Positions 1 through 62,819 are shown, numbered from the stretch's first letter. The stretch: DNA of 64,000 bases from Perkinsus olseni (GCA_013115125.1 JABANN010000047.1:1-64000); one strand, 5' to 3'. Made by a program: numbers and translations. The notes: a model not told the origin generated them from the sequence alone.

Positions 1-1
1 G

Positions 2-33
<32 letters not shown>

Positions 34-34: not shown

Positions 35-508
35 AGACATCAGCAAATTGGCGGATAGGGTTGCCGTTGCCGTTGCCGTAGCCTATAGGCTATAGGATTC
101 ACGCCAAATAGGCTTCTGAATGGTATAGTCGTTGTTGAGAATCTCCACCCGAAGCTTCAACGGCTGCAAAATGATCGGTTCGTCATCCCGGATGACTCAT
201 CCGTGACGAACGCCTTTGGTGCAAAAGACTCAATTCGACTGTCTCATTTCCACTGCGTCAGTCATGGGGCTTTGAAAACTCCTCATCGCGTACACACGCC
301 TAGTTCCCCTCGAAAGCATGAAATTCCCTTCGCACTGCCCTACGCCTTTGGAGGTTCGTTCTGTGTTCAGTGTCTTGGACACATCCACTGCAAAACAACG
401 CATCTCAAAAGATTGAGATCGAGAAGATAGCGTTATGAGACGGGAGAATCTCAAATTGCGCCGCGGGCATCCTCCCGCTTTACGGCGCGGTTGTCTGGGG
501 CGCTGGAC

Positions 509-3465
509 TTAGCCGAAACGTTGTACGGCACCGTACGTACCGAGAACAATCATTGGTATACACCAGACTAAAATTATAGCAATGATAAGACTTTCCATCT
601 TATGACTTTTGACGTAGACGAAGAAAGAACCTGACTGGGAATTGAACCAGCAACCTCTCGATAGCAACCACCGCTCACCAGCGTTCATCTGCTGTACTCT
701 GACGTAGTAAATACACGGCATCATAGCGACCATGAATACCATCGTAATGGAGCCTACTAGATCCAGCAGACTTGATAAGTTGGGGACAGCCACGGCAATG
801 ATGGCCGTGAAGATGATGCACCCCACACGTGCCAAAAAACGTCGGAACAAAGCCGAACGAGAATCATCATCAACACGAATCCTGCAGACATATTCCACTG
901 AAGAGACGATCGGCAGCAACAATACCTGAACCAACGCGATAACAGCCTTTCCTGGGTAGTGAAGGTTGTTGGCTCACCACATAATGGGGGACGCAAGTCA
1001 ATAGTATAGCGACTATCGTGATGTACGACCAGACCCCGGATACGGCCAAGCCTGGTGGGACTATTGAATCCAAAATGGGGTGCTCAATGAGCTTCCTGCC
1101 GTAACCGTAGTAGCCACAGACTCCTATGGCTGTGTAACTGAACAGGGACGGGCAAGGGCCTGAGCCTCGTGCGTCCGATTGTGGTAGTCCGACTGGAGAA
1201 AGCGCAGATCTTATCAAATACGCATGATTTGGCAACCAAACTTTCACGCAATGAGGCTGGCTCACCCTGGCTGAGCAGAGGTGAAATGTCAATAAATAAT
1301 TTTTAACGACATATTGATCGCCGTTTCACTTCTAGAGCGCGCGAGTGTACTGAACCCATCGCGTGCTGTCCAGATTCTGTAGTTTTACTCGACTTTCTTG
1401 CATCAAGGGTCGCGGAAAACTACTCTCAACTGAAGCTCGTGCGTCTGCTGGCTCTAGGGGAGCCAAAACATTCTGGAGACTAAGACACATTCTAAGGCAG
1501 ACTTTTCTCTCGGATGTACTTTTCGAAATGTCGAATATCCCCTGTGAGCAAAGCTTCCTCGCCCTTAACGACAGTTCGGCAGCTTACATAGCGTAAATAA
1601 TAACATAGGCCACTCTGGAGACCCGTACGAAATGTTTTGGTTTGGCCATATCTCGCACCAGCGTAGCGGCAGAGTTGGTGGTGTTGTAGGCCAAAATACA
1701 AACACCAAAGTTCGTGGCCAGCCTCGTGACATCCGTCACGAAAATGTCGTAAGCTATCTCCTCGTGGGTTGTCAACTGAAAAGTCACCTCGAGCCGACCT
1801 GACTATCCCACAGCATCGAATATTCCTCAATAAACAAAATTCTGACGGAGTTGACCATCACAGAGCATCTAGGAGCATCTAGGAGCACTACAAGCGTTAC
1901 ATGAGATCTTGACTCTCCTCGGTCACCGAAGGAATGCTATGGCAGCGAATATTGTCGTGATAAATACTATCACAGCGGAATCTAGGGCCAAGATAATCCT
2001 GTTCTTTCCACGATGCCCGAAATGGCAATGAGACAACTGCACCCTCTAATGACTTACCCCAACCATGAGGCCATTGGCGCTGACCACGGCAAACAGGGTT
2101 AGGATGGACACCATACCAATGGCGGCGACATAGGATACTTCATGCATCGTACGAAGGAAGGTGAAGGGGATAAAGAATACAGCCCAGATGACAATCCAAA
2201 TACGTTGGGATATTGATGGTACCAATTTAGTAGTATTCTCGCCCAATAACACCAACAACGATGCACAGAGTCCGGACATCGTCAGGTGCACAACCATGGC
2301 TGTGAAGATCCAACCTGAGGCACAGGTTCAATTCCCGGGATCGGCAAAACCAACGTCCGCACAACCACAAACACTCCGCCAGGCTTTACTCGAGACCAGA
2401 CCTTCGATGAACGCGATCAGAAAAGCATCGTTGGAAAAATGCCACGAATCCAACGCCCAAGTCCGCAACATCCAAAAAGAAGGTCTCCCCAATATAGCGA
2501 GTATCCGCTCGAAGCGGCCACTGGTTTTAACAGCGGCGGAAGGTGAAAATTACCTGTCCGACGAACTAGACCACCACATCCACCACAAGAATGCTGAGGA
2601 CGACACACAATTCGAACGAATGCAGCGGCGTGTAAGTCAACTATAGGTAGATGTCTAGCAACTCTAGCGAAGAGCCACAATGACATAACCCCCTCGAAAC
2701 CTATCCTCCGCGCACCCGAGCAGCTAGTCGGAACCCTCAGCGTCCAGGCCCGGCTGGCGAGAGCACATTTCCTCAAAGGCCGCACGTGGTCGGCATCATT
2801 TCCGAATGACGGCAGACCGACGAGGCGCTGACCTGCTTTTCCGAAACAGACTCCGCCCAGGTCCTCGTAAGTGTAGACCGGACCCTTCGACGGCGGAGTC
2901 AATGCGATACCGAGGTACTGCCGGGTCAACGCGAATGACGCGAATAAGGCACCCAGGGTTATAACCAGGACCCCACCCAGCCAACCACAGCTGGCAAATA
3001 CCGTCGGCAGCATAACTACACCTAGACCTGAACACGGGTAAAGATAGACTAGCAATGCTGGGCGGACTGACACATGTGCATGGGCAGCACATGAGCTAAT
3101 GGCCGGTCCGCCCAGTGCCGCCATTATGACAGGATGGCAATCACCGAGGGAATGAATGTGAACTGGAGGTTTGAGGCCCCCAAATTGAGGGGTACTCGAG
3201 GATTGCAGTTCAATATTGATACGGCGAATCAAGGAGTGGCCCCTGCAGATTTCCAGCAGACAACCGCGTCGTAAAAGAAGCGACGCCACATCGAGAGAAC
3301 GAATTCACCCCGGCGATCACAGCATAATGAGCCTAACTGTCACGATGTACCCTACAGTAACTTACCAATAGCTGACAATGTAAGACTCAGCACAGCTCTT
3401 ATATCCGAGCATTTGCCATGGACATAGTCTTGTTGAGGTAACTTCTCCGACGAAGTACGCTCCAT
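509..3465 (-). CDS. AAAP/Aa_trans-family amino acid transporter, copy 1 (multi-exon, expanded introns)
   Basis: Exons MERTSSEK...GKCSDIRAVLSLTLSAIG | GLGVVMLPTVFASCGWLGG...YTYEDLG | LRTMHEVSYVA | DMAKPKHF | VAVPNLSSLLDLVGS...MMPCIYY, joined by GT-AG introns. Confidence 0.88.
1175..1385 (+). repeat. Dispersed repeat fragment inside an intron of transporter copy 1
   Basis: Aligns by eye to 57215-57412 (GCAACCAAACTTTC...CAATGAGGCTG, CCGTTTCACTTCTAG, CCCATCGCGTGCTGTC). Confidence 0.75.
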
Positions 3466-3715
3466 CGTTACACCATCAGTTGTTGACGCCGAGTTGGAAA
3501 TGAATGGAAGAAAGATATCTTACAGACTTTTCACTATTATCAAACACACTCAACCTTAGTCTAATCGGAAACGTATTAATCAATTAACGAAAATTGAAAC
3601 TTTCTACGATTCCTTTGAGTACTTCGGAGAGCGTAAAGCTCGTACGACGTAGGCCACCGTCTTCATCAGTCGAGAGAATCATCGTGAAAACGTGGTGGAA
3701 CTATGCCGACTTGGA

Positions 3716-6544
3716 TTATATAAAATTCTGGATTGCTCCGTACGTGCCGATGACTATCATCGGCAAACACCAAACTAGCACTAACGCTACCAAGAAGAAC
3801 TCCACCCTGTGACTAGAAACGTACTTCCGTAAAGAACCTGAATCAACCAAAGATTCCCACACAAGTGCGGACGCCCCTTCGGTCCTACGCTGCCGCAGCT
3901 GCTGAATACGACAGTAATAGACACACGGCATGACAGCCACCATCAACACCATCGTGAAAGAGCCGAGGATGTCCAGCAGGCTTGAGAGGTTGGGGACGAG
4001 CACTGCGATAAAAACCGTGAAAAGTATGATCGTAACCCTGACCGCGAAGCGCTTAATATGAGCGGGCAGACGATCATCATTGACATCAACTTTGCATACG
4101 TACTCGGCAGAGGCCATAATCGGTAGGATGATGACCTGAGGAGGAACCCATCGATTCTGGCCTGTCAGACCAATGTACCGGTAACGGCATTTATGACAAT
4201 CTGGTCGACACAAAGTCGTTGTAATTTATCGCGTGTCTCTAGTCTCCACGACTGTGTTCTGGTATCTTCTAGCGTCAAGATAGTGAACTTGGTCCACCAA
4301 TAATTGTTATTGAAGTTGCTGACGTCATTAGCATTGCTTTGGCTCTTCTGTGGTATCTACTTTATCCTCAAGTTCATCACCTAGAACCTTTGTATAATTC
4401 AACAGCAAAGAGTCTTGAGCTGTTTTAATTCCCTCATACCGACAGAACGACCTATACTCCAATACTCGACTTGCTGCTGCTCGACAGCAACACTCTGAGG
4501 CTGAGTAGCTCTCAAGTAGTCGGTAGCCATATACACCATTGATGTATTCCACTGTGATGAAGCTCCACGACATCCTAGCCGTGCAACATGTGTCAGAAAA
4601 TCACTGGATATAATAAGAGCGAGATAAGTCGCAACTAACAACCTTTAAAATCGGTATCTACATTCTCTATAAGCCAACCAGTGTACGAATTCGCAAGCAA
4701 TTGTGGAGCCCCGACATACGCTACAACCGAGCCGTAGTTCTTGCCCTGTTGTGACCAGCAATCCCCAGCCTACCTGATAATGAGGTACGCTGGAGCATAC
4801 GATTGCCACTAGAGTGACGTAGGCCCAGACGTCCGCCTTGAACATGTTCTGTGGCACTAGTTCGTCCAGGATGGTGTGATCTCTCAAAGATCTACCATAA
4901 CCGAGGTAGCCACATATGCCAATCGAAATGTATCTACCCGAGGAGAATTCATCTATTCACAAAAACTGCCTTGCCATGAAGACCTCGGGGTCTTCATAGC
5001 AACGGCGAGTGGTTCTCACAAGACCATGCCTTGCGAGGAGGGAGGCGTTTTTCTTACACTGTGTAGATGAGGACGTAGGCCCATCTCGATACCGCCACGA
5101 AATGGGTCGGCTTGGCCATGTCCCTCACGAGAGTTGCGACAGAGTTGGTAACGTTAAAGGAGAGGACGCAAACGCCGAAGCTCGTGGCGAGCCTCAGGAC
5201 GTTAGGCTCGAAAACACTATACTCTATTGGAGTCTCGGACACCACCTACCGTAAGGAGAAAAATGCCGTCACCGAGGATCGAACCCGTCACCTCTCACCT
5301 TATGATGAATCCCATTGGCACTGATGACCAGAAACAGGCCGAGGATGGACACCATGCCGATGGCCGCAACATAAGAGACCTCATGCATGGTACGCAGGAA
5401 AGTGAAAGGTACGAAGAACACCCCCCACAGGGTGATCCACACCCGATCGCTCAGCACGGGCAGCAGCTTGGCAGTATTACCACCAAGAATGACCAGTAGA
5501 GACGCGCACGCCCCGGCCATTGTCACATGAACGACAAGACCGGTGAAAACTCGACCTAACACAGAGGATGACCGTAATCAGGATATCAGCTCAACGGCTG
5601 TTTCGATCACTAGAATCGCGAGCTACTTTTGGTGGAAGTCGGCCAGTTCGCTCATCCAGAGGCTATTTAGGGCAGACTACATTCCACAGGGACGTACGCG
5701 TACGCATGTACTGGGAACCGGACGGAAGCAACCGGCTCGAGACTCCGATGGAAGAGGAGACCCGATCGGGGGAAACCTCGCACAGCTATGCTGAGCCGTA
5801 TAAAATTGAGCGCTCGAACTGACCACTACAGTTCTCAAGCAGGGAAGGAAATAGCGAACTCCACGAGCGTGAGTCGCATCCATCGAACCGTAATCTCCCG
5901 CCGATCGAATACCACCTGCACTTACCAACTGTGCCGAAGCAAGCCTTGCCGAGGTCCTCGTAGGTGTAGATCGGACCCTTTGGGGTAAGGGCAATGCCCA
6001 TGTACAGCTTGGAGACGGCAAAACCAGCAAAGAGGACACCGAGGGTGAGGACGAAGGCCCCACCGACCCACCCACAGGAGGCGAATACTGTTGGCAGCAT
6101 CACCACACCCAGGCCTAAGAAAGGGCCGCTCTCCAATTCTATTGAGTATATTCGGTCGATCCTTGATTGCTCTGATAAGAAGCTGAGCTAAAGCCAAGTG
6201 GCGGACGACAAGAAGACAGCAGATATAAGATTGGTTTCCAGCCGCCAAAACCCCGGTGTTCTGAATCACTCGGTTTCTAACAATCCGCCACATAGAGGCA
6301 ACATCGCCGACTTATACCGGCAGCGAAGATGAGTGCACTAACTGATCAGGCAGCTGATTCTGAGCCCACTGCTGTACCGAAGTAAAGCTGTTGAGGAAGG
6401 AGAAGAACTGATAACGAACTTACCAACAGCGGACAGGGCGAGGCTAAGAACAGCTCTGATATCTGAGCATCGTCCGACGTGCAGGCTACTGTAGTCGGTG
6501 ACCACACCCTTGAAAGAGTCTGCGGAAGCAGACCCTTTGGCCAT
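3716..6544 (-). CDS. AAAP/Aa_trans-family amino acid transporter, copy 2 (multi-exon)
   Basis: MAKGSAS...GRCSDIRAVLSLALSAVG, GVVMLPTVFASCGW, FLRTMHEVSY, DMAKPTHF, VPNLSSLLDILGS; same exon order as copy 1. Confidence 0.88.
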
Positions 6545-7023
6545 CTCTGGAAAATTAATCTCGGGCATACTGAGAAGACAATCACACAACTCAACCGTTG
6601 AGCAACCAAGTGTTCCTCCTATCGACCACCCAGCGAACGACACCACATTCGTAAGCCTTAATACTTCCTAAAAGCGAGTATTTTTCAGAGCGATTTCGAA
6701 ATACAAGACCACGAACTTTCGATTTGCTGATACCATAAATTTCACAACTCCCAGCGTTGTCAATGAACACTCAACACAAGAGTCGAGACTTCTCTTGAAA
6801 AGTAGTAACTAAGAACAACAGCTATTCAAACATCGTGTATCGGACAGAGACAACGATCTAGTCGCTGGAAATTATAGTAAGCCGATGAAAGTAATACCAA
6901 CTTTTTAGAAAATCTATCTATGAATAACAACACTAACAGTCACGCATGGCACCCGCCACAACAGCTACTCGTTGGTAGTAAAGAGAACGACACTTGAACA
7001 GAAAATACGTAACACAGGATGAA

Positions 7024-8652
7024 CTAACCGAAGTTCTTGATGGCACCATAAGAGCCCACAGCGATCATCGGAACGCACCACGTCAAAACAGCGAAGATGA
7101 AGCACGTTTCCACCTTGTGAGCTTTCACGTACGCCTTGAAGGAACCTGACAATGGCAACCATTCGAGAGAGAATCTTCCACTCCGCCACCAGAGACACTT
7201 ACCGAGCACAGTCTGCTGCATTCGCATGTAATATATACAGGGCATCATAGCGACCATAAAGACCATTGTGAAGGAACCGAGGATGTCGAGCAGACTGGAG
7301 ATGTTGGGAACGGAAACCGCTATTATAGTTGTGAAGATGATACAGGCAAGACGAGCCAGGAATCTTTTGATGCCCGCCTTGCGGGAGTTATCATCAACAT
7401 CGATGTTCAATACGTACTCGAGAGAGGAGGCAATCGGAAGCAAAAGTACCTGAATAATAACAAATGGTGTTCGACATCAACCTATTCTGTATCTTGCAAG
7501 GTCAACCACTAAGATACTTACCACATAATGAGGCACGCTAGACATGACGATTGCGATCAGAGTAACGTAGGCCCATGCTCCGGAAACAGGCTCGTTCGGC
7601 GGGACGATAGAATCCATGATCGGATGGTCTCTCAACGAGCGACCGTACCCGAAGTAACCACAAACACCAATACCGAAATAGACGGTAAAAATGATACCGT
7701 ACGCCCATCTCGAAACCGCTACGAAATGGGTCGGCTTGGCCATGTCCCTCACGAGAGTTGCGACAGAGTTGGTAACGTTAAAGGAGAGGATGCAAACGCC
7801 GAAGTTGGTCGCAATTTCGATGAAGTCCGGAACGAAAATATCATACACGATTGGCTCATCGGAAGTTATCTGAGAACGACCAGCATGAACAAAAGATACG
7901 CGTTAACCATTAGAGCCTACCCCAACCATGAGGCCATTGGCGCTGACCACGGCAAACAGGGTTAGGATGGACACCATACCAATGGCGGCGACATAGGATA
8001 CTTCATGCATCGTACGTAGGAAGGTGAAGGGTATAAAGAATACAGCCCAGATGACAATCCAAATACGTTGGGATATCGATGGTACCAATTTAGTAGTATT
8101 CTCGCCCAATAACACCAACAACGATGCACAGATACCCGACATAGTGACATGAACAATAAGGGCTGTCAACGCACGACCTGAGCAAACGAAGATATACTCT
8201 AAACCCGGTCCATCGAAAAGTTCAGCTTACCCCATTTTCCGTAGCATGCTCTGCCGAGGTCCTCATAGGTGTAGACGTGCCCTTTCTCCTTTGGGGTAAG
8301 GGCAATACCCATGTAGAGCTTGGAGACGGCAAAGCCAGCAAAGAGGACACCAAGGGTGAGGACGAAGGCGCCACCGACCCACCCACAGGAGGCGAATACT
8401 GTTGGCAGCATCACCACACCCATACCTGCACAAGGGGCCACTCAAGTGAAAGCAACGAGGGCGGTCTTGACGCTTACCAATAGCGGAGAGAACTATGCTG
8501 AAGACGCCTCGGATATCCGAGCACTTGCCGTGGTGCGCTGACGGGTCGACTTCCTCCTTGCTGATGTCATCGAAGCTTTTCACCTCTACCTCGGGCAGAT
8601 GATGGATACGTTTCAGCTCAACTTTGGCGGACTCTCCCTCGGTTATTGTCAT
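7024..8652 (-). CDS. AAAP/Aa_trans-family amino acid transporter, copy 3 (compact introns)
   Basis: MTITEGES...GKCSDIRGVFSIVLSAIG followed by the same motifs; short GT-AG introns. Confidence 0.92.
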
Positions 8653-10119
8653 TGTATAAGAAACAGTAACTGGTGGTAAGTAAGATACGCTGTAGCCACC
8701 CGACCCAGCCGGAAAATTTTATGCTACATCCTCATGGTCAATAGTTTCTGCACCACAGTACTGTTAGTCCGTTGGTATTTTCATGTTCGCTAGAGGATAC
8801 TCACTTGAGGAGAACACAAACGGAGCTAGAGAAAGATACTCGGATAGGATGGTGACACCAGCACCACCAGGAGAATCAAACCAACGTGTGCGAAATAGCG
8901 TTGAGAGTATGCAAGATTTGACAAGATTGCAAGATCGGTTTCTTTCGTGCACGCAGGCGTTCGTACGTCGGCTGTTCCTTTTTGCAGCAATGTTTTAGTA
9001 TGTGCGAAGACGCTCCAGAAAAAGCCACCCCTTCGGTTGGTCGGGTGAGGAGGATGATATCAGACATCGAAGATCGGCTGGCCAAGGAGGCCCGTGAGCT
9101 GCTGAGAGGCCGGTCGTCGTCTGTTGGTGACGATGATGATGATCAGCGACCAGAGAATGGGTGATGTACCTGCGGGAATGCCTGCATCGCAAAGGGGTGT
9201 CGGTGAACATTATGGGGGAATGAGGCTGATCGAGGCGACGAGTAGTGGCGAAAAATGCTCATAGTGTCGGAGGATGGTCAGCTTCGAGTGAACTCTTTGC
9301 AGCAATGATCGTCGATGAACCGGTCAAACAGATCGTAGAATGAAAATTCACCGCTAAATTTTTTGTTCATACATCTGAAAATAAATTAGATCCATGGTCC
9401 ACGGCGCGAGTCGGTAATGATATACGTATGTTGCCCGCTGATGGCATAACCGAGTTGGTTGGGGGGCCGAGTTGCGGTCCTTACAGATACTCTTTAGAGA
9501 AGAAGATTGACGCCTTCAATGGCGAAGGGCCCTCGGAAGCCGATGAAGATGGGAGGGATTTTTCTACCGCAATCTCGTCGACTGAGGATCCGAACCCTCC
9601 TACCGAGTGCACTGACGAAATTTCGGAGAGAGAGTTGCATGGTAAACGATTGATCGACACTTTAGTTGAGCGAACATATGTAGGGCAACGTAATGAATGC
9701 AGCATTTGACTAAGAGTTTCGCAGATATCACACGACATTCGAAGACGGGAGGGACATCTCCGAACGCCGGAGTCTGGAAAGTGATCAAAATCCACTGCCC
9801 TCCACACCTCGTAAAATGTTATGCCCTTCAGAAGACAGAACGAGGCTCAGTCGGCGAGGAATTCTATCGGTGATCGCAGCCGTAGCGGGATCGAAGTACG
9901 CCGGGAAAAGGTAAGCCTCGAGGAAGGGGAAGGAGTCGAGTATGGCGGCGACTGGTGGCCATCGGACTAATCTGCTGGAGGATGGGCTCTGGTCTTCAGT
10001 TGCATATGCAACGGATTCGCAAACTCAGCGACGAAGTCTCAGAGTGCACTTTCACACCGAAGGTGAGCTCTCAAGTGGAGTATAATCGAATTTGCCGGAG
10101 CCTCTGAGTTTGGTATAAG

Positions 10120-27277: not shown

Positions 27278-27319
<42 letters not shown>

Positions 27320-51462: not shown

Positions 51463-51532
<70 letters not shown>

Positions 51533-53859
51533 CATGCCGGCTACTACTTCCGGATTGGACTGTACGAAGGCCTGAGGAACACCCAGCTTAGTGACTCCCA
51601 GCTTAGTCTGAACGTCCCTCCTGTTGAGGAACCCGACAGCCTAACCAACACGATGATGCCGTCGAGAATCCCCACAATAAACGGATGGCAGACACGACTG
51701 ACCGATCCGGGTTGGTCTTGAAGAACTTCCCCTCTTTTCCAGTGGACGCCCGGACGTCGTATCTGCATCATCGAAGTGCTCATCAGTCACTGATGATCAA
51801 TGTGATCGAGAATCAGCTCATCCGATGCGAAAGAGACAATTGTGAGTTCAGAAAGTACTATAGGAAATTGCGCGTGTAGACAGCTAAACTGTGTCAGCTT
51901 CTCGAGAACTAGCGTACCCTACTTCATATCGCAAGTCGGCCCTTTTTTGTCAAAAAAGACTTCCGTGGGAATCGAGCTGGAGACGTCGGTAGTCAGCATA
52001 TCTTTACTAGCACGATTCTTTAAAGCTTACGAATTAACAAGGGGGTATAACACACACAGTGGTTTACGGTGCACACATTCATCGAGCTCCGCCCTTTGGT
52101 CTCCAAGGCCAAGTTTCGACGGCGGGCGGAAGGAGCGTCGCTCGAACGGCAACATGGGCCTTTATCGGAAACCTCAACGTTGAGCAGGTCTAGGTTAACT
52201 TAACCTAGATCGCTGATGTAACTTTTGCATTTACCCATCACTAATGACAGGAATCAACCAACCATACTGCATGCACATACTTCAAGTCCTTCAATCAACT
52301 TTGTTCGGCCCTCATGCAGTATCTCGATGCTCTGCAGTGCCGGGTAGGCACAACTTTTGGTTTTCCGCCTCTGTTTTGTACGAGGCCCACCATTGAATAT
52401 TTGCAGGGAAGTACTCAGACTCGGAACTCGGAAGTGTTTTGCACCTTGGTAGCGTCAGCACAAGCAACTGAAAAAGGAGCAGGAAAAGCAGGAAAACAGC
52501 ATGGGCTCTGAGGGCAGCTGAGCTGCCCCGAAGAGCTGCCGCAGCTCTACTGACATCCGACCCTACCCAGATCAGGAGGCCCGCCCGGACCACCGGAATT
52601 GCACTTGGCGATTTTCGTCTCGCATGTTTTCAAATCTTCGGCCATTTTTTCAAGTCTGAGAGGGATCTGTGGAAAACTGGAAGCACGTAGGCGGGCATTC
52701 CGACTCCTCCGCAGGCAGCAGTCGGCGTTCCTTCGCCATCGTCAAGCAGCCATGGTAACTACCGTGAGAAGAGGAGTGGAAGTAGCGATATAATTTTAAG
52801 CTACAATTACATTGACAACGGTCCGACTACACCATAGCGCATAATCACCCCCTTGAGATTGATCTTCAGCTGAGGCTTCCTCATAATGATAGACCCGAGC
52901 ATGGCGACGACCGAGGCTGCGAACGACGGAAATCAACAATGCGGGTTGTCAATGGACTGCTGCGTCTCCTTATTTCGAAGAGCGCTTTCAGGATTGAAAT
53001 TAACGTGCAAAATCCAACGATCCTGAGAGAGTTGTTCTTGACTTAGGAGACGTAGCAGTCTGTTGAATTATTCAACTTGAAAACCAGCAATGATGAACAA
53101 CGAAAGATACACTCACCGGACGCTGAACTTCCGACCAGGTGAAGGTCCCTGTTCAGATTGCCATGGTCCTTGAACAAGAGCCAGAGGAAATTCGCCCTGC
53201 GAGAACAACAGAGCATACCCCTTACTGCAGTTGAATGTCGGTGACTCACAAATTCACCGCCACCGCCGACAATTTCGATTCGATCGGCCCTTCGCTGAAT
53301 CTAGTTGGCGCCGGGGCGTCGACCCAAATGCTGTTGGCGTCCTCCGTCCAGGAGTATCTTAAGGCTCGTCAAGTACCATGATAATCCCATGAATAGCCCT
53401 ACAGATTCAATAGCTGCGTCTCCCCCTTCGGATCCATCCTGCAGGGTCCAAGCAGGCGAGTTGCCGTACCAATGCTGCTGCTGCTGCCGAGACCACCACC
53501 GATTAAGAGGAAAGTCGGGGACGTCTCCGGGTTCTTGTCAGCTTCGATGATGACATAAAAGTACCGGTAGGGAGGGTCTCCTCCGCCGCAGCCGGGAGAA
53601 AGGTTGCACTCACTTGATGCCACCGCTTAGTTTGATGTACCTGAAGTGCTGAGCCCCTGGGCTGAGGGGGCACAGGACACCTCCGTTTTGTGAACCTCTC
53701 AGCGATGGCTGGGAATCTAAGATTGGCCATAGCACATCTCACGTAGAATGATGATGTGAATTCATCTATGAAAAAAACCCAAGTACTATTTCTATTGTCG
53801 TGATGGGCACTGACCATAGCGAGGAGAAACGCATGGAGCGAGGACAGGATGGTAGGCAT
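50700..53859 (-). pseudogene. S10 serine carboxypeptidase-like gene, multi-exon, probably decayed
   Basis: Signal MPTILSSLHAFLLAMVSA; YFYVIIEADKNP...GGGLGSSS...GPCRM; YSWTEDANSIWVDAPAPTRFSEG; HLVGSSASG; INLKGVIM; YDVR; LLDGGIE | VVVVAGNYDYITNAIGNLNWM; some splice sites look non-canonical. Confidence 0.8.
51464..51532. repeat. (GAT)n microsatellite within an intron
   Basis: Direct reading. Confidence 0.95.
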
Positions 53860-55830
53860 GATCTTAGGAAAGGACTGAGCAGGCATGGCCATCAAGGAAA
53901 GTTTCCGCAGGGGACGCAAAAGTTGATAATGCGACATGTTCAAGGGCCCCGGATCAACCCTCCTAGTTTCGGCTACTATCTCGAGCTGTGGTGATCACTG
54001 TTGAGGGTATGCCACCTGGGACTGAACTCTGAAATTCAGAGTCTGAATCATCAAGAATCTAAGAAAAAGGAAAACAAGTCGGGACTAGGAGAACGTCCGA
54101 TGATCTTCTTCTTGCGCAGCGCCCCTTCGGCCGGGCAGGTGATGGCCAGACTGGCCAGGTCAGTGTAGAGATATAGCTATACTGACTATCACCTGCCTGA
54201 TTATCGGGCTATTCAACTGATCTGTTCAAGTTGATTTAGCGACTGCACGCATACTTACGTTCCTCCGAGGAATGAGGTGACGCAGAGGACTCTACACGTA
54301 GACAAGGGAGGCAAACTGGGACCCTCTCTTCGTAGACTCCCCTAATAGAGTTGACTAGTGAGATGGTGTGGGAGGCCCCCACCAGGAGCGCCTCAGCTTG
54401 GTCCAGATGGGACCTCAACAGGAATGGGAGCTGTCGCGGAGGCAAACGACGACAGGCAGATCAGCTTCATGACGCTCGCGTACGCAGTCGCGAGCCAATC
54501 CCAGGAGAGTCACTCGACGCGCTTCCCTCCTCCGAGTGAAATAGACAAGTAATAGGCCGAGCGATTTAAAGTCAAGATTGTTGAATAAATAGAGAATCTC
54601 CGAGTGAGGGGTGAGAATACTCATGCAGATGAACATCACGACGTGATCACACGTGTCTTGCGTTAATTGAGCCCTTTGACACGGTACACTTGAGCCAAAC
54701 CCAGTATTAAGTTAACACAGACCCGAGTTGAGTCAGATTAACGTAATTGATGAGTTCTAAATTATACGATAAAACTCTACGATTATACTAGCGTCGCAGC
54801 TTAAGTAGTGCAAGCTGCGCGCCACAGACGACGGACTGACACAATCGGGGACAGACTAGAGGCGATACGGCACACACTGTACCGGTACTTTACCGGCCCG
54901 GTACTACCGGATACAGACTGTATCATACAGCCTGCTACTAGCAGGTGCGACAGGCTTCTCGTTTTTTTTCGCAAGTTCGGAAAGTTCTCGTGCAAGTCCA
55001 ACATGATTGGCCTTAGGTAATTCAGGTGTTGTAGTAGAAGTAGATGTGTGTCACACTGTGTGTGTGAAGATAGGGTATGACGGAGTAGTTGGCTGAGCCG
55101 ACTTGGCTCCCCTAGGTGTTGATGAGTACTAGGAAGAGTAGAGTAGATCCAGGGTTGAAAAGGACCAACCCTTGTAGCAGTATCGTAACCTGCCGGATGG
55201 GATAGTGTTCCAACACTGCGAAGCACGTTGAATAATGCGCTCGAATTGTGGGAACGTCAACTGGTCTGCAAAATGACATCCGAGTCACTCATCGAAAATA
55301 CGATGGACGTGTAATATTCTTCCATTCACCCGTCATGCGTATGCAAGTGAAGTTTGGGAGTCACAGTGAACACGGTTGGGCTCATCTGTAAATCCTGTGG
55401 AACCGGGCTATGGCCCTGAGCCACTCCAGAACCACTCCGAGACTGTGTTTCGCGTAATGTTCACAGTAATGAGGAAGCAGGTAAACCACTAGTTCATTGC
55501 CTCAAGATGAAGTCGGGAGTCTCAATCAGAGCGACAACAGTTGTCGGAGTTACTCCGTAGCGATACTCTTATCCTGGATAAGGGTGCGCTATGAAGTCGC
55601 TATGGATAAGTTATCCATATGATAAGCGGCCATGGGATCAGAGGAGTCGTTCAGAGAGTTATCGACAGAGCCACCAACTTGAATGGCTTTGTCGTGGGCA
55701 ATGATCTGTTAAGGGAGAGTATTACAGCACGATTCAGTGTAACAGAGTGTTCAATACTCAGTATTGTAGCCAATGAGGATGGCCGGCATCATTAGAGGCG
55801 ATTGCCAATCCACCGACTGATTTACACCAG

Positions 55831-56526
55831 GAGCCCGTTCAGGTGCAAAACACTTCCGAGTTCCGAGTCTGAGTACTTCCCTCCGAGTCAGTATTTCTAG
55901 TGAACGAGTTCCGAGTAATCGTCTGTTCAAGTCCGGCCGCTCGGTTTGGTCGCATTTCCGATCTGTTTTGCAAGGTACGAATCCCGAGTTAATTTTTCTC
56001 GTGTTCAAGTCATTGCTGTGAGAAATGTCTCCGACTCGGAAAAGTAGCCTTACTCGGTGAACTAATTCCTGCGACGAAACGCGCTACGGGACAGAAACAC
56101 AAAGCAACTTTTTTACTTGGTTCTCGTCAATACAATATGAGTTTGCACTATGAGGCCCTCACAGTGAGGAATAGGCTATTCCGAGTAGATACATTACTGG
56201 TAGTAATCATTCAATAGCATAGTATGATCCAAGGGAACGGAAGCGTTGCGTTCGCAGGAAGTTCGGGTTTCGAAAGGACTCGGAAACACTAGCCCTCTCC
56301 ACTCGGACTCGGATTCACCTTTAGCGAGCCGAGTGGGCGGCACTTGAACTAAGAACTCGGTTCGAGTTATCCGAGAGCTCGGATTTCCAGGCCGCAGAGA
56401 ATTTCTTAGCTCTCGGAAAGTGAACTCGGGAAAAGTTTGCACTTGAACGGACAATTTTTCTCTGAGCTCGGAAGGGTGCTCTTTCCGAGAGCTAAGACTC
56501 GGAAATTGGAGCACTTGAACGGCCTC
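55831..56526. mobile_element. Non-autonomous TIR element family D (3-bp TSD CAG)
   Basis: GAGCCCGTTCAGGTGC...GCACTTGAACGGCCTC; CAG on both sides; TTCCGAG/CTCGGAA subterminal motifs with inverted polarity. Confidence 0.82.
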
Positions 56527-57214
56527 CAGATCTCCTAGAAGAGCTGAAGGCTTCAGCGAGCTTCAGCCTGAAGCTCGTATGTGGTAATCAAATAAGATAG
56601 GAGAGTCTCCTATCTTACTTAGTGACCACATACGAGGTCTCCTAAGGAGACCAGTGGAATTCGAACAACCTGCTCGATCAATCATATGATAATGCCCATA
56701 AACCTCACGAGTTCAACACCGAGTGTTGAACACTCTACTATTCGAGGGCACTTGCTCTTACGAGGATATTGGAGATGCACCGTGCATCATGCACGCGAAA
56801 TGACATTACTCACGAATTGATAACCGCGAAGACCGCGAATTAAAATTTGTCGCGAATACCTTACGCGGTTTTCGAGGTTTACCCTTTTTCCACGCGGTTT
56901 TCGGGCAGTGAAACGAGAGGCATGCCCTTCGCTAGCGGTTTTCACCTCGCGGTTGCATCTATCTCAAATAAAACTTAAGCTTAAATGGCCCCTTGCGGCC
57001 TTTGCTACCTTCGATATAAGATTTACCCTGAGTTCGTCCTCGATCCTTACCGTAACCTTCACTGTAGCCGAGACGGCAGGAGCATCAACATGGCATGCTG
57101 AACACGCTCGTCCTCTTCCCTCCCCTCCCATTATAGGAGTCCTATACCCGGCTGAGCCATCGCATCGAGTCTCACCGTGAGACTCACAAGGTTTATTCAC
57201 CCGGTGAGTACAGT

Positions 57215-57412
57215 GTGTTCGATTTTGATAGTCCAAAACGGAAAAACGCATAACTTCTCGAATACGGAGGATTCTGCAACCAAACTTTCGTACAATGAGG
57301 CTGAGTAGACTTGAAATCTAACTAGATAATTTTTGACTACATATCGGTCACCGTTTCACTTCTAGGGCGCGCGCGACTAATACACCCATCGCGTGCTGTC
57401 TCATTCTGATAG
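57215..57412 (+). repeat. Dispersed repeat, homologous to 1175-1385
   Basis: Shared blocks listed for 1175-1385. Confidence 0.75.
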
Positions 57413-57759
57413 TCAACGCAACAAAGACAGCAAGAAAGGAACCTAGTACTATATATCACGCATAAGGTCATGCTTTAATATGTCCACCACGTGTGATAAA
57501 AAGTTTTTCCAGCCTTTTGTCGACAGAATCAGTGGGGTTCTTGACTTCAGCTGAGCTTATGGCCTTAGCCGCCGCCTGAACCGCATCCCACAGCGTGTCA
57601 AGGTCATTATACTGTCTGTTGTTCGCGTAAATCTTCCTCAAGCCCGAGAACGACTGGCTGAATGGATATTCAGGACCGTTTACCTCTTCAAGATCGCCCA
57701 GTAATTTTCTACCGGATTTAGATCCGGTAGAAACTAAAAGGTAGTTTACTGTTTCGCCT

Positions 57760-58075
57760 TCAACGCCGAACCACGATTATTGATTGCATCCTAAAGTCTG
57801 TCAAAAACCGATTATTCTGCAGTCTTGGAAGAGCGGCCGCTAGCGAGCTTATCGCATCGGCCGTTAGCTGTCCCAGCGCGTATCTCTCCGCCTATGCCAC
57901 CCAAATGAGTATCGTATCTTGACGCATGCCGACGACAGAATAAGCCTCCGCTCCGAAAGGAGATCAACGGCCTACACCACGATGGGAGTTTCTGACTCGG
58001 AAGGGAGTTCCACAATTTTCGCAGTGCGCAGCACATCTTCCAAAGCTTTTCAAGCGGTCTCCATTCCCAATCGTG
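57760..58075 (-). pseudogene. Degenerate relic of the 46882-47985 gene
   Basis: Shares TATCTTGACGCATGC...CAGAATAAGCC and GCGGTCTCCATT; internal deletion and frameshifts. Confidence 0.75.
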
Positions 58076-59494
58076 GCGATCGATTATGCGATCATTGCAG
58101 CACACGCAGTTGTGTCACAACTGCTGAGAGAGCTTCAAGCTGGCGTAGCGAGGTTCACAGAGTCCCACCTGAGCGAGAAGGGAAAGGCAAACAAGGCAGA
58201 CCGAGGGAGTGGGCATGTGATCATCACATTGTGATGACTAACCCTCTCACATCCACTGTGGATGATCTACACGCCTCATACGAAGGAGCAACATATTGGA
58301 GCTTCACCCGTGTTGTGTTGAACGCTAGTGAGAACGCATAACACGACGAGAAATGGATGATTTTTGAGGCCAAAACGCGGTAAACATTCAGGTGTTCAAC
58401 ATACCGTCTTTTCAAAAGACAAAAGACTCTTTTGTAACGCGTTGACATAACGTGTGAGACAAATCACACTCTCACCGTAATAGAAGGCACAAGAAGGAAT
58501 GTACACGATAGAAACTAAGCTGCAGGCCCAATACCAGTTTGCTGATGACGGGAATCGAAGTTGGTCAAAATTGTGAAAGCGCAAAGTTTGCGGCATGCTG
58601 CATGCCGCATGCACATTCGAAATGTTATTGGAATGTTACATTCCTTGCAGGCTTATGCCCAGCTATATGCGAGTGATTGTTTTCTGTGCTGTGCTTGAGT
58701 GTGTTGTTCTGTTGCTTGTTTTCATGACGTTGTGTTGTGTTGAACGCGATTAACATTTCGGTGAACGCGTGATGACGCGTTATCTCGTCAGAGTTCTTCG
58801 CGTTATTGCGTTTCACGCGTGCGTTTTGGCGTGAAGTGTTATTTCAACACAACACTTCGCGTAAAACTGTTTTACACCTTAAACGAGTGAAACTCTATTT
58901 AAGCGAGGGGACAGACAGGAGTATGTGTCTATGTGATCAACTAAGCGGATCGTCTGAGTCAGACCCCTCGTAGGAATGTTTTCCTTATACAATCCCGCTT
59001 TGCTACGCACTCGTGTAAACTCAAGACCACAGAGCTCATGGGCGGAGAAGGTAGAATTGCTACTTGGGTAGCTGCCGAGCACGACGCGCTACCAGAAACC
59101 TTGTACGACGCAAGGGCTTACCGAAAGTAGGTGTTGATGGTTAACGGGGGTGGTAATCCGCATCTGCTAAACGCCCTCCGGAACCAGAGACCAAACCAGT
59201 AGCCCTCTGTACACGAAGATAGTGTGAGACAGCTACCCACACCGATCACTCAGCCCCCGAGAGGCAGTGGGTGGGTTAAATCGCGAGACACGGAGAGACC
59301 AACTGAAAATAGTACTACTCCCATGACAACAACTCCGAGATGGTACCGCTACAACTTCTAATAACGATGCAGACCAGGAAACCAGATATCTGAAGCGCTA
59401 GCTTCCACATAATACAAACACGATACACAAAACGCACGAGGGCGTAGCTGTCTCGGTATTGTACTTCCCAGCACCAAGATGCCTTCCAAGACAT

Positions 59495-59665
59495 TCCATT
59501 GTGTAGAATGCTGGCCCAGGGGACACATTGGGGCGTGCGCTACTGTGGATATCTGCGCCATCAGCATCTAACCGATTCATTGTGTCTCGTCTCCTCTGAA
59601 ATCTTACGGTGCGAGCCTCTGCAATTTCTGCATACGCTTGCTTTACCTGCCGGAAGCGTCTCTCT
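59495..59665. repeat. ~165-bp diverged repeat, second copy at ~62410-62580
   Basis: TTGTGTAGAATGCTGGCC...GGGGCGTGC...ATATCTGCGCCATCAG shared. Confidence 0.8.
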
Positions 59666-59929
59666 TCACTAACTCCGTCTGCAACTACTCGCCAGTTCAA
59701 GCTATCTACATCAAGAACTGCTACTGTTAGTAGTTAATCTCGGTCTCGATCGAGGTTGACTTCTAACAAGATCTTACCCATTACTAACGACACGCTTTAA
59801 CCTAAGATACCCTATGCTCTCACATACTCGTTCCCTTCTTCTTCTTCAAAGGGCCTAAAGTAACTGACTCGCAGACCTTCATAGCGTCCGCACAGGCAGC
59901 TTAAGGGAGAAGAAGAAGAACAGCTCTTC

Positions 59930-60500
59930 CAATATCTCCTGATCTACCCTACCCAGATCAGGAGGCCCGCCGGCACCACCGGAACTGCACTTGGCGATTT
60001 TCGTCCCGCATGTTTTCAAATATGGGGCCATCTTATCTTGACGCATGCAGACGGCAGAATAAGCCAGCGCAACCATTTGGCAAGTCCACATCTGTACGAA
60101 TCTTGGGTCGTGATTTTCCGCGATCCACTCGCCCACTACTTGTCCCAATGCCGCGTCCACCCGCCGATGCCTCGAAAGGATGTCACAGGCTTCCACCACA
60201 ATCGAAAGGCAGTTCCGAAATATTCGCCGTGCGCAACAGAAACCTTCCGACGCTCTTCGAGAGCTCTCGATTCCCAGGTGCGATGATGGATGTTGCAAAG
60301 CTGGCAGCAATCGGAGGGGTTGCCAAAGTCGGACAGAGCTCGCCATAGGGAATGATGGCACTACGAAGAACGTGTCGATTTCTCTACACAGTGAGACCCG
60401 GTGTATCTTAGGTTGCCCTGAGGACATAATAGAGAAAAAGATTCGCGCGACCTTACCATCTTCCACCTAGGACAACACTCTCAACTGAGCAGCCGTCGGC
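59930..60500 (-). pseudogene. Chimeric relic: 5' part of the OPR/RAP-like gene fused to a carboxypeptidase exon
   Basis: 60031-60500 matches 47670-48140; 59950-60030 matches 52565-52645. Confidence 0.8.
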
Positions 60501-61534
60501 ATAGCCTTCCTCTAGATATCCACCAGAGTAATGAATAGCGGACCTCCCAAGACGATTATGCAACAGATTCTACTGCATATCGGAGGATACCAACACCACA
60601 GGCTCTGGCGCTCGAAGCTAGTTCGAATCGAATGAATGCCGTATTCCCCTGTGCGAGCATGCCCACCACCTGCGCATGTAGAATTCAAGTACCTAACTAG
60701 TTTGGACGGCTGACTCGGGGAATATCTTGTGTTCTCGCTCGCCATGATGTATTGAAACGGTCATCGATTCGTGTATACCAGTGTTACATGTTGCTCTTCG
60801 TACAAGAGCATGCTATTGTGGGAATTACGAAGCTTGAACCCCGAAATTCATTCTAATATCGCCTTATGAGAAGAAACGAAGAAAGCCGTTCCATTTTGCC
60901 CAACGAATGTCTGAGCACCAATATGCCGATGATGATAGTTCGACCGGATGATGATGTCGGCGAAAGGTCATTCACACGCCAACGCTCCTCAGGCATCGTC
61001 GAGACCCTCTCAGTAATACCTCGACCCCTCCATTCAGTGAATCTACTACGAAGCGAGTCGTATCGTAAAAAGCGGCGGCCACCTACAACGAAGACGGGGC
61101 CGACCAACAGTGATGATGATGACGTCCTGACGGCTGCTATGTACATCCATCGCTACATACTCCTGAGGAACACCCACAGGGTGTTCCACCTGCGAGCTGG
61201 CAGCTCGGTCTGAACATCTACGCTGTCGAGCAACTTGTTGGCTGGAGCGCATCGGTCGTCACACAAGCGCTGTCTTCGTGTTTACGAGCAGACATTGCGC
61301 TGAAGCGTGATCGATATATTGAGCTACGAGCTCAACGATATGTGGACAGATCGTCTATAGCAGAGGGTACATATCCCAGAGGCTGAGAGTAACCAGCCTG
61401 CTGGAGACACAGATTATACGTTAGAGTTGACTCGGATAAGAAATGTATTCAGTTGTGTTGAATCAATTAAGGGAAGTCTCTCATTGATAGGCAGTCGGAC
61501 GAACCAACAAACTCTCCGTTGGAGAATCTCCGAC

Positions 61535-61690
61535 GTAACCAACACGACGATGTTGCCGTCGACCTGCCGAACTATCGGCAGATAGAACTATCGGCGTTGC
61601 TCACCGGTCCAGGGTTGGCCTGACCAACTTGGTCTTGAAGAACTGATCCTCTTGCCCAGCGGACGCCCGGACGTCGTATCTGCATCCTCA
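61535..61690 (-). pseudogene. Relic of the carboxypeptidase YDVR exon
   Basis: Matches 51640-51770 (TTGGTCTTGAAGAACT...GGACGCCCGGACGTCGTATCTGCATC). Confidence 0.8.
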
Positions 61691-62819
61691 TCACCATCAA
61701 CATCATCATTAAAGTGCTCATCATACACGGGTGTCAAATTTGCGCCAATTTAATTGGCGCGGACGAGAATTTCTCGTCGAGAAAGTAGTAGGAAAATTTC
61801 CGGTGGGTATATTTTCACCTAGATTTTAGATTTTTACGATTTTAGATTTTTTCCGTTACGTATTTCACGCAGCGGCACGTAACAAACACGGCGATTCGAA
61901 ATCTAAGCTCGTGTCTGAGCTGAGCCGCTCAGCCTGAGCGCACTGTGCCACAGTGACTGTGATAACTATGCTGGTCATCGGTGCAATCAACTAATCCGAT
62001 GCGGAATGAAGGATGAATAATGGAGTCACTTGCGAGTTCGGAGAAGGCAACCAGTTAGAAAATTCGGACTGCGAACGCAAAGTTGCGTCACGAGAATGAC
62101 AAAAGCATATCCGCTGCCTCCAACATTATCTAAAACCTCAACCTTAACCTCGGGCCTCAACCTAGGCTGAATAGACTTTTGAGTGGTATAGTAGTACAAC
62201 TCGCCGAGCAGCTGACCCAAGTTGGGTTGGGTTGGGTTGAACCCAACTTGGGCTTTGCTCGCCAAGCGGGAAGTAGTCTACTACCCGCTACTACCAGCAG
62301 TCTCTACTACTAGTAGAGAGCCTCCGCCAAGTAGGGCGGTGTCGTGCCTAGATGAGATTAAGTGAGCGGATCGTTTGACACCTCCTGGGAATGCTTCGCT
62401 GAGACGTTCTGTTGTGTAGAATGCTGGCCGAGGAGACACAATGGGGCGTGCTCTACTCTGAATATCTGCGCCATCAGTATCTAGCTGTCTCATGTGGTTT
62501 CGTGTGTCTCCTCTGGATTACTATGGTTACAGTCTCTCCAGTCTCTGCATACAGTTGCCTTTGCCTTCCGGGAATGCTTCGTTCCACTGGGTTTCTGTGC
62601 ATCGCACAGAAACACAGTGTGCAACAGGGGTTGCACACTGTGTGCAACTACCCATCAGTTCAAACTATTTACACCAAGAAGCCGTACTTGCATTCTAAAT
62701 CCCTTTTCAACTACACCACCCCAGATCGGGTTATTTCCGCTGAAATGTCCTGAACCCAGCTCTTCATTCGCCGAGACTGTGATGGTGGTCGCTTCTTAGT
62801 TTCCTGTTCACTCCACGCG

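What the first reader, a model, noticed from the sequence alone, without database searches (positions are those of the whole stretch)
182..61962. Window-wide stereotyped '7-8-7' inverted-triplication scars: footprints of an unseen hairpin-forming excision and repair system
Seen: an 8-mer X appears as X[1-7] + revcomp(X) + X[2-8], i.e. two overlapping hairpins with 1-nt loops and a net +14 nt. Perfect cases start at 182 (GTCATCC CGGATGAC TCATCCG), 11198, 11490, 18608, 21112, 22022, 22921, 26420, 27147, 40493, 54027, 61763 and 61919. Cases with 1-2 mismatches start at 16475, 26479, 39597, 40181, 40742, 48998, 54143, 54910, 56714, 61614 and 61941. The 8-mers are unrelated to each other, so the geometry is conserved, not the sequence. 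Fourteen constrained bases give about 2e-4 expected chance hits in 64 kb at uniform composition. I saw none in intact coding exons. Established: hAT transposases (Ac/Ds, Tam3, Hermes) make 8-bp TSDs and leave hairpins on the flanks; their footprints are palindromes centred on the complement of the base next to the element. Inference: both hairpins open with long tails and anneal through the shared inverted TSD, giving an unusually uniform repair product. I know of no description of this as a dominant genome-wide mutation class, but I cannot search the literature.
Basis: partly seen in the sequence, partly recalled or inferred. Interest (0 to 1): 0.95.

Follow-up and report, generated by a model that had tools for sequence, protein, structure and literature searches.

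The report
Transposon excision scars litter Perkinsus DNA
This stretch of a Perkinsus (shellfish parasite) genome carries over a hundred identical-shaped 14-base insertions that look like scars left each time a jumping gene of the hAT type cut itself out, giving an unusually dense and uniform record of past transposition.

Summary
All 24 listed sites check out. The window holds 29 perfect X[1-7]+rc(X)+X[2-8] 22-mers (0 in shuffles) and about 106 scars above background at 3 or fewer edits. Only an 8-mer with a 1-nt offset is populated.

Scar-free paralogues carry a single X, so each scar is exactly +14 nt. Length 14 is a sharp peak in the paralogue indel spectrum. Independent contigs from two studies reproduce the scars, and a divergent isolate lacks exactly 14 nt at one perfect scar.

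Seven rare variants keep both palindromic tails unjoined (7-10 nt, up to 30, running into flank complement). That shows two separate flank hairpins rather than template switching.

The geometry is what hAT chemistry predicts: an 8-bp target duplication, flank hairpins centred on the complement of the base next to the element, and joining through the 8-nt complementary tails.

The organism is Perkinsus (closest to P. olseni). No element or transposase lies in the window, and none could be searched genome-wide, so the enzyme's family is inferred. I found no prior description. The mechanism is known, but its uniformity, density (about 1.7 per kb) and steady accumulation appear new.

The parts
182..203 (.). 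perfect scar, X=GTCATCCG
1254..1275 (.). scar with 2 edits; 14-nt gap against a paralogue
11021..11042 (.). perfect scar
11198..11219 (.). perfect scar
11490..11511 (.). perfect scar
16475..16496 (.). scar with 1 edit, inside one copy of a high-copy element; the other copy (about 12.2 kb) has a single X and a 14-nt gap
17698..17719 (.). perfect scar
17803..17841 (.). unannealed variant: X[1-7] + 8-nt tail + 9-nt filler + 8-nt tail + X[2-8], X=GGCTAGTC
18608..18629 (.). perfect scar; the inverted paralogue at 21925-22573 has a 14-nt gap here
19128..19213 (.). unannealed variant, X=GTTGGAAC: left hairpin with 8-nt tail, 10-nt filler, right hairpin with a tail of about 30 nt running into flank complement
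19831..19852 (.). perfect scar, polymorphic: one contig of run X7 lacks exactly 14 nt at 19832 (depth 134 of 176)
20436..20457 (.). scar with 2 mismatches; 14-nt gap against a paralogue
20933..20995 (.). long-tail variant: odd-centred palindrome with 26-nt arms, then the expected X[2-8] 3 nt after the arm
21112..21133 (.). perfect scar inside a subtilase paralogue; two intact paralogues have a single X; conserved protein blocks on either side lie in different frames
22022..22043 (.). perfect scar; paralogue has a single X
22921..22942 (.). perfect scar; 14-nt gap against paralogues
24009..24030 (.). perfect scar; a contig joint in all 4 runs breaks at 24015, the last base of X[1-7]
26420..26441 (.). 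perfect scar
27147..27373 (.). one scar (X=GTAATGAT) copied 6 times (5 perfect, 1 with one mismatch) in a tandem array with a period of about 32 bp
28305..28326 (.). perfect scar
35538..35559 (.). perfect scar
40493..40514 (.). perfect scar
41460..41481 (.). perfect scar
49091..49112 (.). perfect scar
49285..49306 (.). perfect scar
52513..52547 (.). unannealed variant: 9-nt tail + 3-nt filler + 9-nt tail; both tails extend 1 nt into flank complement
54027..54048 (.). perfect scar
55568..55617 (.). unannealed variant: 8-nt tail + 18-nt filler + 10-nt tail
56543..56574. unannealed variant: 8-nt left tail joined directly to a 10-nt right tail (read by eye output)
56774..56795 (.). perfect scar
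58215..58236 (.). perfect scar
58406..58434 (.). unannealed variant: 8-nt + 7-nt tails joined without annealing
58592..58613 (.). perfect scar
61763..61784 (.). perfect scar
61919..61962 (.). perfect scar (61919) directly followed by a 1-mismatch scar (61941)
1..64000. a further ~70 scars with 1-3 edits spread over the window (113 independent sites in all at 3 or fewer edits; those with 2 or fewer mismatches are listed)

Best explanation
The 22-mers are donor-site footprints left by repeated insertion and excision of a cut-and-paste DNA transposon with hAT-type chemistry in a Perkinsus genome.

Steps:
1. The ancestral site holds one 8-mer X. This is shown.
2. An element inserts with an 8-bp staggered cut, giving X-element-X. 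This is inferred; two duplex copies of X are needed.
3. On excision, each flank is nicked 1 nt inside the duplication. Its 3'-OH attacks the other strand at the element boundary, capping the flanks as hairpins: L-X1..7-x8-x7..1-L' and its mirror image. This is inferred from palindromes centred on the complement of the boundary base, which is the established hAT footprint signature.
4. The hairpins are opened on the 3' side, mostly 7-10 nt from the tip and occasionally up to about 30 nt. This is shown by the unjoined variants.
5. The two 3' tails then end in rc(X) and X, a perfect 8-bp complementarity. They anneal, short flaps are trimmed, 7 nt are filled in on each strand and the nicks are sealed. 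The result is X[1-7]+rc(X)+X[2-8], a net +14 nt. This is inferred.

Because any in-register pairing gives the same product, the outcome is nearly uniform. The scars have no function. They decay neutrally, are purged from coding sequence, sometimes disrupt genes and can be amplified in tandem arrays.
For: Geometry is fixed at 8 bp with offset 1: 29 perfect and 59 with one or fewer edits, against 0 in shuffles. All neighbouring geometries are at or near background.

Polarity and +14: the scar-free paralogue has a single X at 21112 (two paralogues), 22022, 18608 and 16475. In 16,421 aligned paralogous columns, length 14 is a sharp peak (14 of 87 gaps; lengths 9-13 have 0-1 each and 15-19 have none). 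Nine of the 12 distinct 14-nt gap placements lie on 7 scars.

Real and still segregating: contigs of X1, X2 and X6 (two studies) cover scars with 0 differences. One X7 contig lacks exactly 14 nt at 19832, with depth 134 of 176.

Two independent hairpins: 7 variants keep both tails unjoined, with or without filler, and tails run past the 8-mer into flank complement. The sites are 17803, 52513, 55568, 56543, 58406, 19128-19213 and 20933-20995. The search gave 0 in 5 shuffles.

Match to known chemistry: Ac/Ds footprints are palindromes centred on the complement of the base next to the element. In yeast the arms reach 20 nt and 88-89% show microhomology (PMC5873905, passages read). hAT elements make 8-bp TSDs and flank hairpins (PMC4763223 and PMC5499845, passages read).

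Steady process: the edit spectrum is flat at 25/31/24/33 independent sites for 0-3 edits.

Selection: scars are depleted in long ORFs (6 vs 21.8 expected), and one is a frame-breaking case.
Against: No element with an 8-bp TSD and TIRs is present in the window. The strict scan gave 6 hits, all palindromic 8-mers inside an inverted duplication. The relaxed scan gave 8 hits against 0-5 in shuffles.

No transposase domain was found in the 17 long ORFs scanned.

No report of hAT elements in Perkinsus turned up, and the genome could not be searched.

The target 8-mers show only a weak preference: G/C at positions 1 and 8, and slight T at 2-3. This is neither the nTnnnnAn nor the nnnTAnnn pattern that I recall for the Ac and Buster groups of hAT.

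Short-tail footprints, which dominate in plants and Candida, are barely enriched here: (0,1) 9 vs 2.6, (1,0) 8 vs 3.8 and (1,1) 3 vs 0.6. So the repair differs from studied hosts.

The X7 evidence rests on one explicit row, and the other indel rows were cut from the output.
Confidence: 0.75

Rival explanations
1. The events are the same (insertion with an 8-bp duplication, then hairpin excision), but the transposon belongs to another superfamily, for example Merlin-like, MULE-like or an undescribed one.
For: P. marinus is reported to hold two conserved Merlin-type transposase ORFs with no recognisable TIRs or TSDs, and Merlin makes 8-9 bp TSDs (PMC8101967, passages read). MULEs also make flank hairpins and 8-10 bp TSDs (PMC5499845, passages read). 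The target preference here is not the classical hAT one.
Against: The Muta1 flank hairpin is 43+43 nt, so it has no 1-nt offset, and over 90% of its excisions are precise (PMC5499845). Here the offset-0 class is empty (0 of 0). Nine-bp versions are also absent, although both Merlin and MULE make them. Merlin excision chemistry is unknown to me.
Confidence: 0.12
2. No mobile element is involved. A host-encoded, domesticated transposase-like nuclease makes 8-bp staggered breaks that are filled in, hairpin-capped and rejoined, so it acts as an endogenous mutator.
For: No element is seen in 64 kb despite more than 100 scars. Domesticated hAT transposases that make hairpin-capped breaks do exist (Kat1; PMC4763223, passages read). 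Conserved transposase ORFs without ends are reported in P. marinus (PMC8101967).
Against: No known chemistry duplicates the 8-mer and then hairpins both copies without an intervening element. Known domesticated enzymes act at specific sites, whereas these 8-mers are unrelated. A low-copy element is enough to explain its absence from one window (my arithmetic).
Confidence: 0.06
3. The scars are replication template-switch or fold-back synthesis errors that create inverted triplications.
For: Template switching can create X-rc(X)-X-like patterns (recalled, not tested).
Against: That process has no reason to favour one length and offset, yet only k=8 with offset 1 occurs. Variants with two separate palindromes divided by 2-18 nt of unrelated filler, and tails copying flank complement, do not fit a single switch-and-return.
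Confidence: 0.03
4. The motifs are selected functional hairpins (protein-binding or RNA structures) or an assembly artefact.
For: The motifs are strong hairpins and lie outside coding sequence.
Against: The 8-mers are unrelated, and sites decay with a flat mismatch spectrum as neutral DNA would. They are absent from paralogous copies. They are reproduced in read-derived contigs from two studies and are polymorphic in a third sample.
Confidence: 0.02

Closest known systems
Ac/Ds (hAT) excision footprints in plants, S. cerevisiae and Candida albicans
   Same: Palindromic P-nucleotide tracts centred on the complement of the base next to the element, an 8-bp TSD, and use of microhomology after hairpin opening. 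Yeast arms reach 20 nt (PMC5873905, passages read).
   Different: In those hosts the footprints are heterogeneous: 28 types among 128 events in Candida, mostly with arms of 0-3 nt. Here one product, with the full 8-nt inverted TSD, makes up roughly 95% of recognisable scars (about 106 canonical vs 7 variants). Short-arm classes are barely enriched.
Genome-wide transposon excision footprints in rice (O. sativa vs O. glaberrima)
   Same: Excision scars recognised by genome comparison and treated as a mutational force (PMC4423477, passages read).
   Different: Rice gave 94 excisions in over 63% of two aligned genomes, only 9 hAT events, and nearly all came with deletions or foreign filler. Here there are about 1.7 uniform scars per kb.
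Kat1, a domesticated hAT transposase of Kluyveromyces lactis
   Same: Makes hairpin-capped breaks on flanking host DNA. It is a precedent for transposase activity without a mobile element (PMC4763223, passages read).
   Different: Kat1 cuts one specific locus and the break is repaired by gene conversion. It does not act at random 8-mers and leaves no +14 scars.
MULE (Muta1) excision
   Same: Flank hairpins and 8-9 bp TSDs (PMC5499845, passages read).
   Different: The hairpin is even (43+43 nt), and excision is mostly precise.
P-nucleotides at V(D)J coding joints (RAG plus Artemis); recalled, not read here
   Same: Palindromic additions from asymmetric opening of hairpin-capped ends.
   Different: No 1-nt offset, tails usually 1-4 nt, and no target duplication, so no three-arm structure.

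Membership tests
hAT superfamily excision footprint | 8-bp target-site duplication | tested here: met
   Only k=8 is populated. k=7 and k=9 have 0 perfect cases, and 2 and 0 cases with one or fewer edits. The duplication is inferred from the scar, not seen flanking an element.
hAT superfamily excision footprint | [quoted passage not shown] | tested here: met
   Offset 1 only: offset 0 and offset 2 both have 0 cases at k=8. Hairpins with a 1-nt loop and stem 7 number 80 vs 3.8. The signature is as described in PMC5873905.
hAT superfamily excision footprint | Elements with short TIRs flanked by 8-bp TSDs present in the genome | tested here: inconclusive
   None in this 64-kb window. No whole genome is held.
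hAT superfamily excision footprint | Transposase with DDE/RNase-H fold, BED finger and hAT C-terminal domain encoded in the lineage | not testable with these tools
   No Pfam transposase hit in the 17 long ORFs of the window. No Perkinsus genome or proteome could be searched by family. The literature searches found none reported.
hAT superfamily excision footprint | Typical (not defining) target consensus nTnnnnAn (Ac group) or nnnTAnnn (Buster group); motifs recalled | tested here: not met
   Across 80 scars, only G/C at X1/X8 is nominally significant (halved chi-square 9.2, 3 df). T at X2 and X3 is 32-34%.
MULE / Mutator footprint | TSD of 8-10 bp (mostly 9) and an even flank hairpin | tested here: not met
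   k=9 and k=10 have 0 cases, and offset 0 has 0 cases. The Muta1 hairpin is 43+43 nt (PMC5499845).
Merlin footprint | 8-9 bp TSD; excision chemistry unknown to me | tested here: inconclusive
   8 bp fits, but 9 bp is absent. Merlin-like ORFs are reported in P. marinus without TIRs or TSDs (PMC8101967).
Template-switch mutation | Inverted copy of variable length and position (broad length distribution) | tested here: not met
   A single sharp geometry, and two-hairpin variants with filler.

The most novel reading that the evidence does not exclude
Perkinsus carries a very low-copy, or even domesticated, hAT-like cut-and-paste system that has run continuously, with a repair route that turns nearly every excision into the same indelible 14-nt hairpin scar.

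By extrapolating this window, the genome would hold tens of thousands of dated transposition events. This single process would be a leading source of longer indels and of pseudogenes in multigene families such as the subtilases. In the boldest form no conventional resident element family exists at all.
Probability: 0.25. Interest if true: 0.85.

Novelty: new variant of a known kind. Interest (0 to 1): 0.72.

Why it matters
If the pattern holds genome-wide, several things follow.
- **Datable record:** Each scar is a countable record of one transposition event, and its age can be read from its decay. The long-term activity of a DNA transposon could then be measured directly, which is rarely possible because excisions usually leave messy or no traces.
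- **Repair in a little-studied lineage:** The uniform product shows how hairpin-capped breaks are repaired in a relative of dinoflagellates and apicomplexans: distal hairpin opening followed by annealing through 8 nt.
- **Mutation class:** The scars are a distinct mutation class, +14 nt and frame-breaking. One already interrupts a subtilase paralogue in a tandem gene family.
- **Strain markers:** Scars are polymorphic between isolates, so they could serve as simple presence/absence markers for strains of an aquaculture parasite.
- **Annotation:** Pipelines should expect frequent 14-nt hairpin insertions in this genome.

Tried and rejected
- **Whole genome:** None is held, so there was no genome-wide k-scan and no transposase or Ku/Lig4/Pol-theta search.
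- **Intact elements in the window:** The strict TSD+TIR scan gave only palindromic 8-mers inside the 15.3-22.5 kb inverted duplication. The relaxed scan did not beat shuffles convincingly (8 vs 0-5).
- **High-copy element at 12.06-12.71 and 16.26-16.89 kb:** I considered it as the culprit and rejected it. Its ends are flanked by TA at most, not by an 8-bp duplication (read by eye).
- **Short-tail footprint classes (m+n<8):** Only marginal excess.
- **Scar clustering or local hopping:** Not significant (6 adjacent pairs vs 4.85 expected, P=0.35).
- **Scar 28603:** The paralogue alignment was too poor to read.
- **14-nt gaps not on recognised scars:** 29970/29972 and 57984. The first holds a single 7/1 hairpin, seen by eye.
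- **X7 gap totals:** The totals over scar-bearing pieces (28, 84, 37, 16) hint at multiples of 14. The per-indel rows were cut from the output, so I do not count them as evidence.
- **Haplotype variant at 17296-17298 (32 extra letters):** It looks unrelated.
- **Literature on Perkinsus end-joining genes:** Nothing useful.
- **Yu et al. 2004 (PMC321453):** Not held. Whether that paper already shows the exact 7-8-7 product in yeast remains unchecked.
- **Supplementary files of papers:** Not consulted.

Full report
**Observation**

A full scan finds 29 perfect X[1-7]+rc(X)+X[2-8] 22-mers, against 0 in each of 10 dinucleotide-preserving shuffles. Perfect counts for other k were:
- k=4: 23 vs 15.0
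- k=5: 2 vs 0.6
- k=6: 0 vs 0.1
- k=7 and k=9-13: 0

So the peak at k=8 is sharp.

I also varied the overlap offset and allowed one edit. Only k=8 with offset 1 is populated (59 sites vs 0). The other 14 combinations of k=6-10 and offset 0-2 are at or near background.

Counting the minimum substitutions from a perfect scar gives 29/32/24/33 sites at 0/1/2/3 edits, against 0/0/0.2/6.8 in shuffles. Five of the perfect sites and one imperfect site are copies of one scar in a tandem array of about 32 bp at 27147-27373. After collapsing that array, 113 independent sites remain, about 106 above background, or roughly 1.7 per kb. At 14 nt each, that is about 2.5% of the window (my arithmetic).

Hairpins with a 1-nt loop have a maximal stem that peaks at 7 (80 vs 3.8), with a tail that looks like chance extension. 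Of 127 such hairpins, 101 belong to triplets.

**Organism and setting**

The window encodes a cluster of subtilase (Peptidase_S8) genes in direct and inverted orientation. The best named relatives of one are Perkinsus olseni proteins at 80-87% identity, then P. marinus at 72-75%. One tRNA is the only Rfam hit.

**Polarity: the scar is a +14 insertion at a single 8-mer**

I compared paralogous copies within the window.
- At 21112 (against two paralogues), 22022, 18608 and 16475, the scar-free copy has one X and the scarred copy has exactly 14 more bases.
- 20436 gave a 15-column gap in that alignment and a 14-nt gap with BLAST.
- 28603 could not be read.

Across all self-alignments (50 HSP pairs, 16,421 columns, 87 gaps), length 14 is a sharp secondary peak: 14 gaps, against 0-1 for each length from 9-13 and none from 15-19. 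Of the 12 distinct 14-nt gap placements, 9 lie on 7 scars (1254, 16475, 18608, 20436, 21112, 22022, 22921). The other 3, at two sites, do not.

**Not an artefact, and still segregating**

Read-derived contigs of three samples from two studies (X1, X2, X6) cover scar-bearing pieces with 0 differences. Examples are 19758-20679 and 25747-27153.

In a more divergent sample of the same coded organism (X7), one contig lacks exactly 14 nt at 19832, inside the perfect scar at 19831, with depth 134 of 176. The rest of the indel table was cut, so other X7 gap totals (28 and 84) are only hints.

**Two independent flank hairpins**

Seven rare variants keep both palindromic tails without annealing:

| Site | Structure |
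|---|---|
| 17803 | 8 + 9-nt filler + 8 |
| 52513 | 9 + 3-nt filler + 9 |
| 55568 | 8 + 18-nt filler + 10 |
| 56543 | 8 + 10, no filler |
| 58406 | 8 + 7 |
| 19128-19213 | 8 + 10-nt filler + a tail of about 30 nt |
| 20933-20995 | 26-nt arm, then X[2-8] 3 nt later |

The search gave 0 in 5 shuffles.

Tails that pass the 8-mer continue as the complement of the adjacent flank. That is what an opened flank hairpin gives and what a switch-and-return copying error does not.

**Mechanism**

I wrote out hAT chemistry for a site X-element-X (my derivation).
1. A nick 1 nt inside each flank, followed by attack on the opposite strand at the element boundary, gives the hairpins L-X1..7-x8-x7..1-L' and the mirror image.
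2. Opening them on the 3' side, 8 or more nt from the tip, leaves 3' tails ending in rc(X) and X.
3. These tails pair perfectly over 8 bp.
4. Filling 7 nt on each strand yields exactly X[1-7]+rc(X)+X[2-8].

Any in-register pairing gives the same sequence, which explains the uniformity.

The literature passages I read agree on the known parts.
- hAT elements make 8-bp TSDs and flank hairpins (PMC4763223, PMC5499845).
- Ac/Ds footprints are palindromes centred on the complement of the base next to the element.
- In yeast the arms reach 20 nt and microhomology is used in 88-89% of footprints (PMC5873905).

The MULE Muta1 hairpin is even (43+43 nt) and its excision is mostly precise (PMC5499845). 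That does not fit, because the offset-0 and 9-bp classes are empty here.

**What is not shown**

- No element with an 8-bp TSD and TIRs is in the window.
- No transposase domain is found in the 17 long ORFs scanned.
- A high-copy element at 12.06-12.71 and 16.26-16.89 kb has long sub-repeated TIRs but at most a TA duplication, so it is not the source. Scar 16475 lies inside one copy and is missing from the other.
- The target 8-mers show only a weak preference: G/C at X1/X8 and slight T at X2-3. This is unlike the hAT consensus motifs I recall.
- No whole genome is held, so the presence of a hAT-like transposase in the lineage is untested.

Absence from one window is not strong evidence against an element. 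The flat edit spectrum implies roughly one scar per hundred or so point substitutions per site (my estimate). A family of ten to a hundred copies hopping at ordinary rates could produce that, and such a family would rarely be caught in 64 kb.

**Consequences seen here**

- Scars are depleted in ORFs of 200 aa or more (6 of 113 vs 21.8 expected).
- Scar 21112 lies within subtilase coding homology. The S8 match of that ORF ends at the scar, and the conserved blocks on its two sides are in different frames.
- One scar has been amplified in a tandem array.

**Novelty**

Eight literature searches found no description of this pattern in Perkinsus and none of a genome-wide, uniform footprint of this kind. 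The library is incomplete, and supplements were not seen.

Reported Perkinsus DNA transposons are Dada (6-7 bp TSD; PMC3706591) and Merlin-like ORFs without ends (PMC8101967). Genome-wide footprints in rice are sparse and heterogeneous (PMC4423477).

I therefore rate this as a new variant of a known kind. The chemistry is textbook hAT, but the near-single repair product, the density and the steady accumulation appear to be new.

Noticed in passing
window 12060-12710 and 16260-16895: Two copies (about 85% identical) of a MITE-like element. Its TIRs of about 150-170 bp are built of ~20-nt sub-repeats and end CTACACCATTTC...GAAATGGTGTAG, flanked by TA at most. Summed contig depth is 35-85 times that of neighbouring bins, and loose ends with many different flanks occur at 12708 and 16891/2, so it is a multi-copy family.
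   Followed up: partly
window 27132-27404: A tandem array with a period of about 32 bp, embedded in ATG/ATT microsatellite. Its repeat unit contains a complete scar, so a scar has been amplified secondarily. Reads 'seem cut' here.
   Followed up: partly
window 23682-24015: In all four runs a contig joins 24015 (the last base of X[1-7] of scar 24009) through 'TTA' back to 23682. This suggests a tandem copy-number variant of about 337 bp whose breakpoint coincides with the scar. The 23574-24240 bin has about 7-fold depth.
   Followed up: partly
window 14430-15811, 20278-21659, 28664-30076, 62740-64000 (and 22796-23098): A family of subtilase (Peptidase_S8) paralogues, 78-89% identical, in direct and inverted orientation. 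The 20.3-21.65 kb copy is disrupted.
   Followed up: partly
window 17454, 40079, 48653, 56605 (centres): Odd-centred palindromes with arms of 12-18 nt, with no recognisable third arm on either side. They may be one-sided footprints with a deletion of the other flank.
   Followed up: no
whole window: Even palindromes (no loop) with stems of 8 or more are also in excess (11 vs about 0.5 expected). The source is unknown and they are not part of the 7-8-7 class.
   Followed up: no
window 10120-10193 (-) and 1-34: A tRNA gene (59.5 bits), and a (GTT)n microsatellite at the start of the window.
   Followed up: no
window 17296-17298: Contigs of X1 and X6 carry 32 other letters in place of one base in a G-rich stretch. 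This is a haplotype variant and seems unrelated to the scars.
   Followed up: partly
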